Source: Pseudobdellovibrionaceae bacterium (lineage in GTDB: Bacteria; Bdellovibrionota; Bdellovibrionia; Bdellovibrionales; Bdellovibrionaceae). From it: a stretch of DNA of 64,000 nucleotides. Below, piece by piece: positions 18,001 to 30,000 of this stretch. Every line of letters begins with the position of its first letter. Positions within the stretch are counted from its first letter, which is position 1. The stretch spans positions 64,001 through 128,000 of the forward strand of contig JBDHWW010000002.1 in NCBI GenBank assembly GCA_039810425.1, written 5' to 3'. A program made the position numbers.

Positions 18001-21000
18001 GAGGTGGGAACGTGGTTTTGCTGTAAGCCGGATTCTGTCCCAGTCACCAGGTCCCATAAGTTTCCCGATAACCTTGGATGATCATTCCTCTAGGAGGGTC
18101 CTTACGGACCCCCTCAAGCGATCTTACCCGGAAGCTACCCACGGGTCGTGGTACTATTGCTTCCCTATTTGATCTTGCTCCGCGCAGAGTTTGGCTGTTT
18201 TCACTCCAGCGGCTCCCCCGGACCCTCCCGTTCCCGGAATCCGGCTCAATGCCCTGGACATTCTCTCTGTTCCACTGTTCCTTGCATTACTGCAGAGGGG
18301 CGTTACCCCTTGCGCTACCCTTTGGAGTCCGGACTTTCCTCCCCCCAAGAACCCCGAAAGGCCCTTTGGCGGCGATCATCCGCAAAACCGCAGTTCTTCT
18401 AACACTCTAGGCCATAAACTGTAAACCCCCAAACGCTGTTTTGAGTTCACAGGGGGCGATTTTTCTATTAATTTGGGGTTCTTCAGCTAAATAAGGATGC
18501 TACATATGAAAATTTTAGTTTCAGTTCTCGTTTTCGTGACAGCTTTGACCCTTGGCGTGAGTGCCTTGGCCGAAATGAATAAAGAAGGCGCCATCGATAT
18601 GGACGGCCTTTTCCCACCTCCTAAAAATGATATGAGCCAAAGCGAGCGTCCTGAGAAGCCGGAATTGGTGGCTCCCGTGTTTTTCGCTAAAATCGGCGCC
18701 TCTTCGGTCAAGCTGGAATGGAAGGCGTCTCCTCACGCCGAGGCTTACCACGTGCAAGTAGCAACAGACTCAAGCTTCAAATGGTTGGTCAAAGAAGAGG
18801 AGATGTTCAAAGGCACTTCTTTGGAAGTCACTGGTCTTGAGGGTGGAAAGCACTATTTCTGGCGTGTTTCTGCGGAAAGGCCCAGCAATAAAGAAGGCCA
18901 CACACATGGCTCTTTCGTGTCGTCCATGTTTGCGACTTCCGCGAAGTAGTTTCTATTTTGTTTTATACTTAGATTTTGTTTTCGGACGGGGCAAGGTTTT
19001 TACAAAGGACCTTGCCTCTTCTTTTTCCAGCTCAGTAATCGCGCCCCAGTCTTTATTCGTGAGTGCACCAATAATCGCATAGGCAAATAGCGAATGTCTG
19101 CTCTGAGCATCCGCTTTTACGAGCTTCACCATGGTTTTTTTCCACCCGAGCTCTATGAATTGTCGAACGGTTTTAATCCCCGCTTTGCGAAATGCTTCTT
19201 CACTCTTCGGGCCTAGGTTTTTAAGATCCGAAATCTTCTTAGCTTTCTTCAAGGCATCTACGGCCGGCTCATCCGAGAACATTCTCGGCGTGCGTGTGTC
19301 GATGTTGCCGTAGTCTTCTTCTTTTTGGGCGCGCTTCTTTTTCGAAGTCTTCGGCTTCGGAACGCTTCCCCAATAGCTTGTCGGCTTCACCGCCTGAGCT
19401 ATCACCTCAGTGACGAGGTCTTCGAAATTTTCAGTCTCTAGCGGAAGATAGAGCCACTTCGGCAGAATCGGATGCGGCGTTAAAAAGGGAAAGCGCGCTA
19501 ACGCCTTTCCCTGAAACTCGCGATCCACCGGAAACATACAACCATTCCATATTTCAAATGGATATTTTTGGCGCTTATAAGTGCGATTCCCCGTACTCTC
19601 AAAGGTCGCAAGAACCATCTTGTCCTCGATATAATAGGCAAAGCCACCGAACATTGCTTTTCGGCGGTACTCGTCTTCGGGAAGAAGACCTTCAATCCAT
19701 TTAAGTTCTTGGGGTTCTTTAGCCATACATTCTTATAGCGCGGCTCTCTGTGGGCCGTCTAGGGATTGGTAGTTTCATTGCAAAGCCGCCAAAAGTTCTA
19801 TCAGGACCTTAGTGCCCCTCTCGACGGCGGTTTACTTGTGGTCCCATACAAAATGAACAAAAATGGGCCATGGGCTTTAAAATAATTTCTCCCGCGCAGT
19901 TAGAAATTCAGCTGCGGCGGTTTGAAATTCGTCTATCGCAATACTGTGCCGCCAGATTTAAGTGGCTCACTCCTCTGGCGGCAGCGCTTCTGGTTCTCTT
20001 AGCCTTTTGGACTAAATCCCTGATTGAAGTAGACCCGAAGAGTTTGCAAAACTCCGGCATGTTCTTGTTTACCCACCATGCCCGTTATGTCATGCCTTTT
20101 CTTCTGGCGGGTGCGGGAATCTCTATTTTTTTCCATCGCAAAAATCGGGCGTATTATACGACAGCCGTTACCATGATCGCCTGGGCACTGAATTGCTACA
20201 TGCTTTTCCTGGGTAAAGTGCCCGCGGATGTTTTCATCTGCATTCTTTGTTCCTTTCCAACGAATTGTATCTTTACATACTATTTAGGGGTCCATCGCCG
20301 CGAAGGCAGGCCCCGGGTGAGCCTTTCCATCGGCATGATCGCGTACTTTGCATTGACATGGGTTTACATCAGTACGCGACTCTACTCGCAGGATGAATAT
20401 GGGCAGTTACTACTGTTTTGGAATTTCAAGCTGCAGTACATGATTCTTGTCGCCATTCAGCTGGCTTTCGCGTTTTCTCCCCGGCCGGTGGATCCATTTC
20501 TTGCTTATAATCCGGTGACAGCGGCCCACAGTATACTTTGGCCCGTCACGACTTTGTTGGCCCGGCGAAACCGCCCTGCGATTTCGCGACTCTGGTGGAA
20601 TGGGTTTTGGTGCGTAATTTTGGGATATCTGATTATCTCTCTGCGCATTCAATTGGATAAATCAGACTTGGACGTTTCTAAAAATCTCTTTATTCGATCG
20701 ACCTCACGCTATTTTCTGCTGATTCTATCCGACGTTGGTGTTTTCAATCTCGTGACGGGTGTTGCAAGACTTTACGGCTACCGCGCTCGCGATGCCACGA
20801 GCTTTTCTTGGTTGGCTCGAACTCCAGCGGAATATTGGCGCCGTGGCAGCGTTTACCACTACGACTTCATCAATAGATATCTTTATCGTCGGCTATGGAA
20901 ACGCATCCGGATCCGATTTGTAGTAGCTTTCATTTGTTTCTTTTTCTTCTATGTGATGAAAAATGGGGCCCTGGACGTGGGGGCCATGTTCCTAAATTGG

Positions 21001-27000: not shown

Positions 27001-30000
27001 GTGTTCATGTGCACATTCTCAGTTCGCGCCTTGAACTTCCGGAAATCAAGCCTATGGCTCAAACTTACACACCTAAAGTGGGACTGAAGAAGGCTGGATC
27101 AAAACTTGGCAAGCCGGCGCAAGAGCGCCTGGGCATTTTGCGTCGAAAGGTCGAGATCGTCATTCTGGTGCTGACGAGCCTCTATATTATGCGCGATGAG
27201 ATGAAGGCCACCTTCGCAAAGCGTGTTCTTGAAAACACCCCGATAAGTTCAGATAACTTCAAAAAATACTGGCTTTTTTCCGCCGAAGAAAAGAATCTCC
27301 TATCTGTGCGTCTTCAAAAATTCGAGAAAAAGTTCACTATGGCGGTCAATGCCGCAGAAACCCTGGATCAAGTGGATGCTCTTTACGAGCATCTGCATTT
27401 TAATGTGAATCTTGGGGTCTACTCAGTGATGAATAGAGAGAGAAAGGGGCTCCATGGCACAAAAAGTTAGTATTGATATCTTAAAGAAGGCCCTTCTGGA
27501 GGTTAATCCTCGTGTGCGTAAGATAAACTTCACGGCACAAACAGATCTCTTTGAAGAGGGAATTCTGGATTCATACTCCGTGATTCAGCTTGTGAATACT
27601 TTTGAAAAGCGCTTTGGTATTGTCTTTGATTATGCCGATTTGAAGGCGGCGTATTTTAGGAACCTCATAAGTCTTATCGGTATCCTCACGATGAAGTATA
27701 AGCTCAAGGAGGGCAAGAATCCTCCGCCAAATAAGAAGAAAAAGAAAAGAAAGGCCAAAAAAGCCGGGGTCGTCAAAAAGGCTAAAAAGAAGAATTAAAA
27801 CTTCGTAAATGTTCGATTTAACATCGGATGAGAATCATCTGTCGGCCCGGTATCCGAATCCGGATGAAAGGCGATAATTTTCAATTTTTCGCCGAAAGAA
27901 TTGAATGAGTGAACTAAACCCTCCGGTAAATAGAAGGCCATGCCCGGTTTCAAAGGGAGTTTCTGATTCGGCATCACACACTCCCCTTCACCTTCAAACA
28001 CGACACCAAGACGAACCGTCGGATGAATATGCGGCGTTTGAACCACTTTGGGCGGAAATACTAAAAGGTTGAAAACGGGATCCCCCATACGGGGCGGCGG
28101 AATGATAATTGTTGTGTTGGAATTATCGATGTAACAGAGACGACCACTGTCTTCTACGGGGCCACCTACATGGAGAAGCCCCCGGTATCCGACGCGTTCG
28201 ATGACGATGATTTCGCCATCCCCTTTGATATGAAACGGGCCGGGCGCAGAGAAGTACATGCCACCCTGAAGTGTGACATAGTGTTGCCCCTGGCGCTGCA
28301 ATTCATATTTGCCATTGAGAACGAATCCAAAGTAAGTACTTGTCGGGAGCGCAAAACTCTCATCACAGCGTCCGAAGCCTTTTAAGACACTCGGATACAT
28401 CGTGGCAGACGCATCTAAAACACATCCTTCTTTAACCTGCTTATAAATCATAGTTGCTCCCCCACTCCTCTACTTTAAAGACTATCTCCCTATTTCCATT
28501 CGCTGTCATGGTCCAATGCATATGGATCCAGACCTAAGTTTTAAATCGTCGCCTTCGCTTTCTGCTTCTTATGCATTGTTTTTGGCTTCTTTGTTTCCGC
28601 CTTCATCTTTTCTGCATTTTCTTTTCTATTTTTTTCCATGGCTAAATAGCTTGAGATCATCGGCTTGATTATTTGAAAGCTCTTATTGACGCCATTCGAA
28701 TTTAGCTGCGTCCTCGAACCACCCATAAGATTTTCTGAGCGGAAAAGTTGATAGAACTCCCGCGTAAGTAATTGAAAATTGAAGCCAGAATAAGCCAAAT
28801 ATTCTTTTATCTCTTTTTTATCTACGTTAGCGCCGCTGAAAAATATTTGAGCTACAGAGGAACTCATTTGATTGTCAGGAAATATTTCACGGTTATATCG
28901 TATTCTTTCTGGAGATATAAGAAAGACGACTCGGGCTTTATCTTTCAATAAGAACTGGATAGACCGGAGTGGCACGAAACTTACATCGAGAAAAAATTCC
29001 CTTTTGTCGGTAGCCGAGCCTTCGACATTCCAGCTCGTCTCCAATCTATCCTGTATGAAAATGGCCTTCTTAACGGGCAACAGATAATCTAATCTAGGCA
29101 ACAACACTCGCGACCACGTGGGTTGATTCGTAAAAATTTCATCTTTAGAAAAGACTTCTGCAGTGAGAGGCGTGTCAGGTAAGTTCCTGCTAAAAAGCAC
29201 TTCTTCAAAATCCCTTGCAAACATTCTGGACGGCTGGACATAGAAAATGTAGTCAGGCTGTGACGTCTTTAGACGCTCTTGGAGAAAGAAGTACTGGCTA
29301 AGAGCGAATCCCGGAGATGTCTTTAGCTCCACTTGAACCGGCCTTCCCAAAGACTGTAACAAATAGGATTCCAGGTTGTGCAGGCTCGTTTTGAGTTCTG
29401 GCGTATCAGCACTCCAAATCTCCGGCGCAACAAGCCACACGATCAGTGGCCCGTCATCTGCTTTAGCCTGTAGACATAATAGTACAAGAAAGCTTAAAAC
29501 GTACTTCAATAGAGTTCTCCAGTTTTGACTGCGTGGTTTAATTTATACTGATTTGGATAAAAAAGAACCTTTTGAGCCCAATCTTTCATCCCGTTACGAT
29601 ACCAATAAATGCTCTTATATCCTTTGGATTTTAAGTAAATAGCGGCTTTATACGCACGCCAATCATACTCGTTCTCACCAATGAGAACGATCGTCTTATT
29701 TTTTGGTATGTTGATACTATTCTTATAGCCTTCCTTGTGTCTCCTCAATCCTTTCGCATTCATCCTGCCACGAAAGACCGGCATGGAAAGTGCGTTTCTT
29801 TTTTCGGGGAAAGACATCGCTAATGTTCCCGGCAAAGAGAATTTTTTTTCCAAGCGAACGTCGACTATTGTATTTTTCTTTTTATCCCGCATAAACTCTC
29901 GAACTTGATTTGCCTCGACGACTATTGCCGCATCAGACTTATCCGGCGTTAGACACGGCTTTGCTTTGTCTCCATACTCCGCCATTCCACCGGGAAACCA

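What a model noticed while it worked through the whole genome (the two positions that open the first line are those of the whole stretch)
19870..28451. Dlt-like acyl-transfer module built on asparagine-synthetase-fold ligases, a carrier protein and a Pfam-invisible MBOAT, [...]
Beside a minor-pilin operon lie a membrane protein of MBOAT fold (g00248), two PP-loop ATPases of asparagine/beta-lactam-synthetase fold (g00253, g00254), an acyl carrier protein and a cupin, the first three without any family hit. The set reads as a DltABC-like loading and export module with a new kind of activating enzyme, and the ligase-cupin pair is common in phage genomes.
Evidence so far: Model of g00248 matches PORCN, DltB and HHAT as its top 10 folds; model of g00254 matches asparagine synthetase, carbapenam synthetase and TsnB9, with SGGIDS invariant in 18 of 18. 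The ligase is in 16 of 181 family genomes; MBOAT, ligase and carrier protein are together in 5 of 14 fetched loci, the cupin in 9 of 14. At least 467 viral contig stretches encode the ligase and 32 of 79 fetched ones have the cupin within 5 kb. Paper search 209 found nothing.
(Added by a program. Inside this text positions count along the whole contig: contig position 64,001 is position 1 of the stretch shown here. "Call 12" and the like, gene names such as g00115 and contig names such as C1 are that model's own, and its searches are not shown. The text may have been shortened before it was handed on; [...] marks where a part breaks off. The agent that wrote the report below was given it as the finding of a first reader that could run no searches.)

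Follow-up and report, generated by a model that had tools for sequence, protein, structure and literature searches.

The report
Carrier-protein module with swapped loading enzyme
A bacterial gene cluster pairs a carrier protein and a membrane acyl-transfer-like protein with an unusual two-subunit ATP enzyme in the place where related clusters have an ordinary activating enzyme, which points to an undescribed way of loading and handing over small acyl groups at the cell envelope.

Summary
The genes and folds are real: MBOAT fold (top ten matches all MBOATs, Z 11-18), asparagine-synthetase-fold ligases (Z 10-13), carrier protein and cupin. In 29 loci of this MBOAT family a carrier protein is present in 27. 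The ATP enzyme beside it is an AMP-binding enzyme in 18 loci, this ligase in 8, both in 1. The 8 ligase loci form one clade on both the MBOAT and the ligase tree, so this is one swap, kept since. Three things are new. (1) The column of the catalytic MBOAT histidine holds Lys or Arg in 7 of these 8 loci; no DltX motif and no clear DltD were found, so it is not a Dlt member. (2) Each ligase has a ~200-residue partner gene, and the ligase 2-partner model scores 0.84 against 0.02 for controls. Against a loading role: ligase relatives in phages and other phyla lack the MBOAT and nearly always the carrier. Substrate and acceptor are unknown. Verdict: new variant of a known kind.

The parts
19870..21294 (+). 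MBOAT-fold membrane protein, 474 aa; Lys364 in the column of the catalytic His; D308-A-T where canonical MBOATs read ENF
   Evidence: Model pLDDT 94; VIA-align top ten all MBOATs, Z 17.6-11.2; Foldseek; His column
21254..22066 (-). DAHP synthase, an extra copy (a 79% identical second copy lies on contig C69); at the locus in 2 of the 3 same-genus genomes that carry the module
   Evidence: Pfam and NCBIfam over cut-off; tblastn of own genome; gene maps
22247..22543 (+). Chorismate mutase, the only CM_2 match in the genome; first gene of the plus-strand run of abutting genes to 27798
   Evidence: no prephenate dehydratase or dehydrogenase match in this genome
22547..24019 (+). Two-domain SAM-dependent enzyme: N-terminal class I methyltransferase fold (candidate carboxymethyltransferase) and C-terminal CmoA-like domain (candidate carboxy-SAM synthase)
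   Evidence: TIGR00740 E 1.7e-27, under its cut-off; phrog_4752 E 3e-43; PDB CmoA/YecO E 1e-17; alignments
24040..24762 (+). Partner of ligase 1 (U240), about 230-240 aa, no known family
   Evidence: 80 of 81 members of its family lie within two genes of a ligase; weak leads phrog_8983 and PF27318
24749..25864 (+). Ligase 1: asparagine-synthetase-fold PP-loop ATPase without glutaminase domain, from a branch shared with CPR bacteria and phages
   Evidence: 31% identical to ligase 2; tree; motifs
25868..26908 (+). Ligase 2: asparagine-synthetase-fold PP-loop ATPase (SGGIDS 88-93, TGELGDQLFG 157-166, K311); the copy inherited with MBOAT and carrier
26880..27470 (+). Partner of ligase 2 (U196; likely start at 26898); predicted second subunit of the ligase
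   Evidence: Follows ligase 2 in 8 of 8 module loci; complex model 0.84 against best control 0.02; only a weak link to U240
27454..27798 (+). Acyl carrier protein, D39-S40 attachment site, with a basic C-terminal tail
   Evidence: PF00550 over cut-off; weak DltC hit; tree
27795..28451 (-). Cupin; last gene of the minus-strand run that begins with the pilin-like genes
   Evidence: Cupin_2; found in 18 of 181 family genomes, all of which also carry the MBOAT family or the ligase
28541..29509 (-). Protein with a predicted N-terminal hydrophobic stretch; SGNH/AlgX-like by a weak lead only, no GDS(L) serine motif seen; in 3 of 29 loci
   Evidence: Atlas score 0.91 with only 136-145 shared features; no NCBIfam hit for its two homologues
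29506..33227 (-). Accessory genes: rhodanese-domain protein, and a membrane protein fused to a PQQ-type beta-propeller; relatives also flank three AMP-binding-type loci
   Evidence: The HTTM label for the membrane part is recalled from a motif and has no library hit
33190..39045 (-). EF-hand protein and three pilin-like genes; loosely linked
   Evidence: N-methyl motifs; pilin-like genes near 5 of 29 MBOAT-family loci

Best explanation
The core is MBOAT-like protein + ligase 2 + its partner + carrier protein, usually with a cupin. SHOWN by computation: the folds, the conserved ATP site, the joint inheritance, the replacement of an AMP-binding enzyme at the locus, and the His-to-Lys/Arg change. 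PREDICTED: ligase 2 and U196 form a two-subunit enzyme. INFERRED: this enzyme adenylates a small carboxylic acid (ATP to AMP + PPi) and transfers it to the phosphopantetheine thiol of the carrier; the cupin tailors the tethered group; the MBOAT-fold protein docks the carrier at the inner face of the membrane and hands the group to an envelope acceptor, using Lys364 rather than a His base, or acts as a conduit only. In this genus an added arm (extra DAHP synthase, chorismate mutase, CmoA-like domain) probably turns prephenate and SAM into carboxy-SAM; the fused N-terminal domain carboxymethylates an acceptor; and ligase 1 with U240 activates that new carboxyl. Substrate and acceptor are unknown.
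For: Carrier protein in 27 of 29 MBOAT-family loci, the 2 misses at contig ends. AMP-binding enzyme in 18, ligase in 8, both in 1, neither in 4, all four on contigs under 10 kb. Ligase-linked MBOATs form one clade (97/96 on 22 rows, 89/88 on 29 rows) and their ligases one clade (SH-like 93 on 143 rows) with a compatible branching order. The order ligase 2-partner-carrier holds in 8 of 8 loci, with the MBOAT gene directly upstream in 3. Three loci of another clade have the same accessory genes with an AMP-binding enzyme instead (L233, L235, L236). The only ligase-clade MBOAT with the His kept is L175, the one locus that also has an AMP-binding enzyme. Complex model: 0.84, best of 3 controls 0.02; the mark was reached by 116 of 157 solved complexes and 2 of 215 mismatched pairs; runs agree in at least 47% of contacts; partner pLDDT at least 72. 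The chorismate mutase is the only one in a 99.9% complete genome with no prephenate dehydratase, prephenate dehydrogenase or CmoB over cut-off. G081 keeps this mutase beside the methyltransferase although it has a second one fused to a dehydrogenase.
Against: Outside this clade the ligase has no MBOAT of this family (0 of 77 viral loci, 0 of 31 metagenome loci, 1 of 60 GTDB loci, that one being a module member) and rarely a carrier (1 of 77, 0 of 31, 2 of 60), so its basic reaction does not need a dedicated carrier. The complementary pattern rests on one evolutionary event. The genome has 7 AMP-binding enzymes elsewhere that could load the carrier, and G086 has one about 12 kb from its MBOAT gene. 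The AS-like reactions in the passages read are amidation, lactam, hydroxamate, nitrile and hydrazide formation, not thioesters (PMC13622209). Loss of the His may mean the MBOAT is inactive. The CmoA-like domain lacks Arg199 (0 of 8) and scores under the CmoA cut-off. The methyltransferase is full length in only 2 of 181 family genomes; chorismate mutases are common in the family (102 of 181) and absent from 18 of 18 viral methyltransferase loci.
Confidence: 0.42

Rival explanations
1. The ligase is a tailoring enzyme, not the loader. An AMP-binding or ATP-grasp enzyme encoded elsewhere loads the carrier, and ligase 2 amidates or ligates an amine to a free carboxyl of the tethered group before the MBOAT-like step.
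For: All AS-like reactions in the passages read make C-N bonds or nitriles. The genome has 7 AMP-binding enzymes. L175 has both enzyme types. Sister loci carry several carrier-tailoring enzymes: PLP decarboxylase-like in 9 of 29, ATP-grasp-like in 8 of 29, desaturase in 8 of 29. PP-loop domains acting on tethered substrates in albicidin and cystobactamid synthesis are recalled, not checked here.
Against: 21 loci of the same MBOAT family without the ligase keep their AMP-binding enzyme at the locus in 17 cases, and the other 4 are short contigs; 7 of 8 ligase loci have none in the stretch read. No glutaminase domain or conserved amine-donor gene is in the module; the nearby YafJ-type amidotransferase is not conserved.
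Confidence: 0.28
2. The ligase-partner pair modifies surface proteins directly (amide or isopeptide formation on pilins here, on tail fibres in phages), with the partner as adaptor. The MBOAT and carrier form a parallel arm acting on the same target.
For: In Mu-like prophages the partner and ligase follow baseplate J, gp48 and the tail-fibre gene (L005, L068, L071, L072), and long ligases follow a gp38-like adhesin (L093-L096 and others). The Atlas gives a weak HI1402_helical lead for U240. AS-like enzymes act on peptide C-termini (PMC13622209). Pilin-like genes flank 5 of 29 loci.
Against: 5 of 8 module loci have no pilin-like gene nearby. Many phage copies lie among non-structural genes. The complex model makes the partner a ligase subunit, which does not need a fibre target. 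This reading does not explain the fixed ligase-partner-carrier order.
Confidence: 0.18
3. The genes are neighbours in a mobile island of tailoring enzymes with no shared pathway, and the His-less MBOAT is a decaying or non-catalytic relic.
For: GC of 43-44% over the ligase-cupin stretch against 49% for the genome; patchy distribution; stepwise gene additions (8, 4, 3 and 2 genomes); His lost.
Against: Congruent trees across MBOAT identities down to about 26-33%. The His column holds a basic residue in 7 of 8 loci rather than random residues, and the DAT.F....P.E.WRR motif is kept. All reading frames are intact.
Confidence: 0.08

Closest known systems
Dlt pathway (DltA, DltC, DltB, DltX, DltD) and MBOAT-SGNH systems such as PatAB (PMC12148441, passages read)
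   Same: ATP enzyme + carrier protein + MBOAT-fold membrane protein; DltB matches at Z 16.5; weak DltC hit for the carrier.
   Different: No DltA-type enzyme at the locus; His replaced by Lys; no FxYxxF shuttle motif; no confirmed SGNH partner; extra cupin and partner subunit.
Asparagine-synthetase-like ligases: AsnB synthetase domain, beta-lactam and carbapenam synthetases, TsnB9, lasso cyclases, FzmA
   Same: Fold, SGGxDS loop and TGxxxDxxF motif.
   Different: 11-15% identity; no glutaminase domain; invariant Gln163 where canonical enzymes have the acidic residue (Glu352 of E. coli AsnB, PMC4659947); a predicted second subunit; linked to a carrier protein.
Phage CmoA-CmoX-CmoY DNA carboxymethylation (PMC12783734) and other carboxy-SAM pathways: CmoAB, TglEF, MccS/B (PMC10491745)
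   Same: A CmoA-like domain beside a SAM-fold transferase and an AS-like ATP ligase; the same Lys at the 198 position and no Arg199, as in the S-B43 CmoA-like protein.
   Different: The transferase is a fused class I domain, not a C5 DNA methylase or CmoB. The ligase profile does not find S-B43 CmoY. The locus brings its own chorismate mutase and a carrier/MBOAT arm.
Butirosin-type carrier pathway BtrI/J/K (recalled, not tested)
   Same: Sister loci of the same MBOAT family carry a carrier, an ATP-grasp-like enzyme and PLP decarboxylase-like enzymes.
   Different: Those genes are absent from this locus.

Membership tests
Dlt / MBOAT-SGNH acylation system | MBOAT-fold membrane protein | tested here: met
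Dlt / MBOAT-SGNH acylation system | Catalytic His conserved across MBOATs (PMC12148441) | tested here: not met
   Column holds His in 12 of 12 canonical rows, Lys364 here; ligase clade 5 Lys, 2 Arg, 1 His; no His between residues 331 and 382
Dlt / MBOAT-SGNH acylation system | Phosphopantetheinyl carrier protein | tested here: met
   PF00550 over cut-off, DS motif
Dlt / MBOAT-SGNH acylation system | DltA-type AMP-binding enzyme in the cluster | tested here: not met
   None of the genome's 7 PF00501 matches lies on this contig
Dlt / MBOAT-SGNH acylation system | C-terminal FxYxxF acyl-shuttle motif on the MBOAT or a DltX microprotein | tested here: not met
   Not at the MBOAT C-terminus; six-frame scan of 8 module loci gave no plausible ORF here and one candidate in L009
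Dlt / MBOAT-SGNH acylation system | SGNH partner with Ser-His-Asp triad | tested here: inconclusive
   U322 gives an SGNH/AlgX lead at 0.91 with a low shared count, no library hit, and is in 3 of 8 module loci
Dlt / MBOAT-SGNH acylation system | Acylation of an envelope polymer | not testable with these tools
   Needs biochemistry
Asparagine-synthetase-like (AANH, AMP-forming) ligases | PP-loop SGGxDS and second motif TGxxxDxxF | tested here: met
   Invariant in 90 of 90 rows apart from the Thr and Phe; aligned to the genome's own AsnB
Asparagine-synthetase-like (AANH, AMP-forming) ligases | Synthetase-domain fold | tested here: met
   Five family members at Z 9.9-12.9, next fold 6.7
Glutamine-hydrolysing asparagine synthetase (AsnB) | N-terminal glutaminase domain | tested here: not met
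   346 and 371 aa, the PP-loop near residue 90, no GATase hit
Asparagine-synthetase-like (AANH, AMP-forming) ligases | Catalytic Lys equivalent to AsnB Lys449 | tested here: inconclusive
   K311 is kept in 89 of 90 rows; its equivalence is inferred from position and was not aligned
CmoA carboxy-SAM synthases | Family score over the curated cut-off | tested here: not met
   96.7 bits against 193.3
CmoA carboxy-SAM synthases | Arg199 (PMC3663124) | tested here: not met
   Ala here, Arg in 0 of 8. The S-B43 CmoA-like protein, taken as the proven SpCmoA from its place beside the SPPC methylase, has Lys-Glu there too, so the test does not exclude the activity
CmoA carboxy-SAM synthases | Carboxy-SAM formed from SAM and prephenate | not testable with these tools
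   Only genomic support:
Phage CmoA-CmoX-CmoY system | C5 DNA methylase CmoX beside CmoA | tested here: not met
   No DNA methylase among the locus proteins; the rest of the genome was not searched
Phage CmoA-CmoX-CmoY system | Ligase of the CmoY family | tested here: not met
   Ligase profile finds nothing in S-B43 and scores its PP-loop gene at E 0.12 in a small set

The most novel reading that the evidence does not exclude
A two-subunit asparagine-synthetase-fold enzyme acts as a new class of carrier-protein loader, making thioesters. It feeds an MBOAT that has traded its universal catalytic His for a Lys, and in this genus the cargo is a carboxymethylated unit made by a fused carboxy-SAM synthase/transferase. 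The same ligase-partner-cupin kit, spread through hundreds of uncultured phage contigs, would then mark an undescribed chemistry for decorating virion and cell-surface structures.
Probability: 0.27. Interest if true: 0.82.

Novelty: new variant of a known kind. Interest (0 to 1): 0.63.

Why it matters
The MBOAT His is described as universally conserved and needed for activity (PMC12148441). A clade that keeps Lys or Arg there, tied to a change of activating enzyme, is a natural test of whether bacterial MBOATs must be catalysts or can be conduits. Thioester formation by an asparagine-synthetase fold would extend that family's known chemistry. The ligase-partner family is large, has no Pfam model, is common in uncultured phages and CPR bacteria, and has no assigned function. 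Ligase, partner, carrier and methyltransferase are small, apparently soluble proteins, so the first steps can be tested in vitro.

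Tried and rejected
Sequence searches of PDB with the MBOAT profile gave only a hydrophobic VKOR match, rejected as composition; the partner profile gave nothing. Cultured phages hold almost none of the family: one weak ligase match, no cupin match among 50,697 records. A single-protein viral scan for the methyltransferase found nothing; the alignment scan did. A metagenome scan with the MBOAT alignment could not run for lack of a conserved stretch, so MBOAT context rests on GTDB genomes. Promoter and terminator scans matched chance (28 against 30, 19 against 23). 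No RNA holder listed. Earlier findings of this scan: none returned. I first took the missing Arg199 as ruling out carboxy-SAM synthesis and dropped that. The YafJ-type amidotransferase at 17078-17899 was rejected as ammonia donor because it is not beside the module in G080 or G081. Homology of U196 to U240 is unproven (hhalign probability 5%, E 0.007; HMM E 0.008). Paper searches for the gene combination found nothing relevant (and the 12 listed of 674). Dropped rows: five GTDB loci that duplicate family loci and near-identical copies were left out of the ligase tree (143 of 176 rows); 5 of the 24 family genomes with an MBOAT match (fragment or weak) were not fetched at 20 kb. The ligase tree is FastTree only. 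No ligase-carrier or MBOAT-carrier complex was modelled.

Full report
OBSERVATION. The interval holds ten genes. A plus-strand run of abutting or overlapping genes from 22247 to 27798 reads chorismate mutase, two-domain methyltransferase, U240, ligase 1, ligase 2, U196, carrier protein. The MBOAT-like gene lies upstream on the same strand, with a DAHP synthase inserted on the other strand. The cupin ends a minus-strand run that starts with pilin-like genes. Family scans name the DAHP synthase, mutase, methyltransferase, carrier and cupin, and give nothing over cut-off for the MBOAT-like protein, the ligases and the two small genes. Named homologues point to Bdellovibrionota.

FOLDS. Ligase 2, folded with 90 sequences, has pLDDT 96. 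Its best matches among 48,161 chains are TsnB9 (Z 12.9, rmsd 4.4, 264 aligned), beta-lactam synthetase (11.8), human asparagine synthetase (11.7), carbapenam synthetase (10.6) and AsnB (9.9); the next fold scores 6.7. SGGxDS, G158, D162, Q163, G166, Y289, K290 and K294 are invariant in 90 rows and K311 is in 89. The two motifs align to the genome's own AsnB, which places an invariant Gln where AsnB has Glu352 (residue listed in PMC4659947, one passage read). I infer an active adenylating enzyme whose substrate is not aspartate. Uncultured phage proteins share the fold closely (TM 0.7-0.8). The membrane protein, folded with 86 sequences, has pLDDT 94; its top ten matches are all MBOATs (PORCN Z 17.6, DltB 16.5, down to ACAT1 11.2) and the next is 8.1. 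None of the 86 rows hits PF03062.

THE MBOAT LACKS ITS HIS. In an alignment with 12 canonical MBOATs, gap-free in the helix concerned, the His column is His in 12 of 12 canonical rows and Lys364 here. The 8 ligase-linked members have 5 Lys, 2 Arg and 1 His. Of the 21 other members of the family, 10 have His in that column and 6 in the column before. PMC12148441 (passages read) calls this His universally conserved and needed by PatA and DltB, and names an FxYxxF shuttle motif and an SGNH partner as parts of such systems. The motif was not found here. U322 is SGNH-like only by a weak lead and is limited to this genus. The module therefore works like a carrier-to-membrane hand-over system at best; it is not a Dlt member.

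COMPARATIVE GENOMICS. Full-length ligases occur in 16 of 181 family genomes, the MBOAT family in 24 of 181 counting weak hits and in 9 of 300 genomes drawn across the phylum. I read 29 MBOAT-family loci from 28 genomes. A carrier is present in 27, an AMP-binding enzyme in 18, the ligase in 8, both enzymes in 1 (L175), neither in 4 short contigs. A sister group adds ATP-grasp-like and PLP decarboxylase-like enzymes and a desaturase. The ligase-linked MBOATs form one clade, their ligases one clade, and their carriers one side of a weakly supported branch (71/86). This is one swap kept over a long time, not eight independent events. L233, L235 and L236 have rhodanese, propeller, pilin-like, carrier, cupin and MBOAT genes like this window but an AMP-binding enzyme in place of the ligases. 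The cupin is found in 18 of 181 family genomes, every one of which has the MBOAT family or the ligase. The locus is layered: core in 8 genomes, U240-ligase 1 in 4, mutase-methyltransferase in 3 (one genus), extra DAHP synthase in 2. Ligase 1 comes from a different branch, shared with CPR bacteria and phages.

EVIDENCE AGAINST A GENERAL LOADING ROLE. Among loci fetched by the ligase, the MBOAT family is in 0 of 77 viral, 0 of 31 metagenome and 1 of 60 GTDB loci, and a carrier in 1, 0 and 2. The cupin is within 5 kb in 30 of 77 viral and 25 of 60 GTDB loci. Several phage copies follow tail-fibre or adhesin genes, others lie among oxygenases, radical SAM enzymes, desaturase-like and glycosyltransferase genes, or among replication genes. 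The family's basic reaction thus needs no dedicated carrier; a host carrier is not excluded.

PARTNER SUBUNIT. An iterated profile from U240 gathers 81 proteins, 80 of them within two genes of a ligase; the loci were themselves fetched by the ligase, so this shows tight placement, not the family's full range. U196 follows ligase 2 in all 8 module loci; its link to U240 is weak. The ligase 2-U196 model scores 0.84 against a best control of 0.02; the mark was reached by 116 of 157 solved complexes and 2 of 215 mismatched pairs; runs agree in at least 47% of contacts; partner pLDDT is at least 72; my own alignments were used, so the counts hold roughly. The invariant Glu131 of U196 lies in the interface. 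The U240-family profile found no relative in PDB (U196 itself was not searched), so a pass from memory seems less likely. This supports binding and does not show it.

THE SKIPPED ARM. The C-terminal domain of the methyltransferase is most like CmoA. CmoA makes carboxy-SAM from SAM and prephenate, and this feeds tRNA, peptide and phage DNA carboxymethylation (PMC10491745, passages; PMC12783734, first part, section 13 and passages read). In phage S-B43 an asparagine-synthetase-like ligase, CmoY, then joins glycine to the new carboxyl. Here the mutase next door is the genome's only one, and no prephenate dehydratase, dehydrogenase or CmoB over cut-off was found; the DAHP synthase is a second copy. 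Arg199, held to mark CmoA (PMC3663124, passages), is absent, but the S-B43 protein lacks it too. In viral contigs the N-terminal domain was found in 18 loci, 15 with the CmoA-like domain; 5 have this ligase and 4 a second PP-loop family nearby, 8 either, and none a mutase; two of the five are contigs already found through the ligase. The ligases are not CmoY orthologues. I put the carboxy-SAM reading of this domain at about even odds; it is an accessory of one genus, not the core.

MECHANISM AND VERDICT. Most likely (0.42): the ligase 2-U196 enzyme adenylates a small acid and loads the carrier, the cupin tailors it, and the His-less MBOAT hands it to an envelope acceptor or conducts it; in this genus a carboxymethylated unit is made on site. 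Rivals: tailoring of a group loaded by a distant enzyme (0.28), direct modification of surface proteins (0.18), no shared pathway (0.08). Searches of the open library for the combination found nothing; subscription journals are mostly missing and the supplements of PMC12783734 were not read. Labels recalled and not tested: HTTM, BtrIJK, the albicidin and cystobactamid PP-loop domains. The finding is a new variant of a known kind, with two specific surprises, the His-to-Lys/Arg MBOAT clade and the two-subunit ligase family, and clear bench tests.

Noticed in passing
window 18008-18391 (-): RNase P RNA, class A, 219 bits; not part of the module.
   Followed up: yes
window 17078-17899 (-): YafJ-type class II glutamine amidotransferase 2 kb upstream of the MBOAT gene; not beside the module in two same-genus genomes.
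   Followed up: partly
L005, L068, L071, L072 (around the match): In Mu-like prophages the partner-ligase-cupin genes sit directly after baseplate J, gp48 and the tail-fibre gene; a possible virion-modifying cassette.
   Followed up: partly
L088, L093-L096, L138, L042: Long ligases of 555-564 aa follow a gp38-like adhesin gene; their extra N-terminal 200 residues have no family hit and do not match the partner profile.
   Followed up: partly
L223-L227, L305-L308: Sister loci of the same MBOAT family carry a carrier protein with ATP-grasp-like, PLP decarboxylase-like and desaturase genes in varying sets; a separate undescribed pathway.
   Followed up: partly
L286-L303: A two-domain methyltransferase with a CmoA-like half, and no SPPC-type DNA methylase checked for, in uncultured phages; a candidate further carboxy-SAM system.
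   Followed up: partly
L090:6866-7801 and relatives (cluster c4/b7): A second Pfam-invisible PP-loop family often near the ligase; its profile weakly matches the S-B43 CmoY candidate (E 9e-9 in a small set).
   Followed up: partly
L045: A Saccharibacteria locus with three ligases, two partner genes, the methyltransferase pair and PQQ-type propellers within 20 kb.
   Followed up: no
L243:6655-8804: Pseudomonas phage Cygsa01 has two PP-loop genes, annotated MnmA, right after its baseplate genes; one weakly matches ligase 2.
   Followed up: no
window 41886-43166 (+): A 426-aa ORF that reads like SAM decarboxylase fused to spermidine synthase (by eye, not scanned).
   Followed up: no
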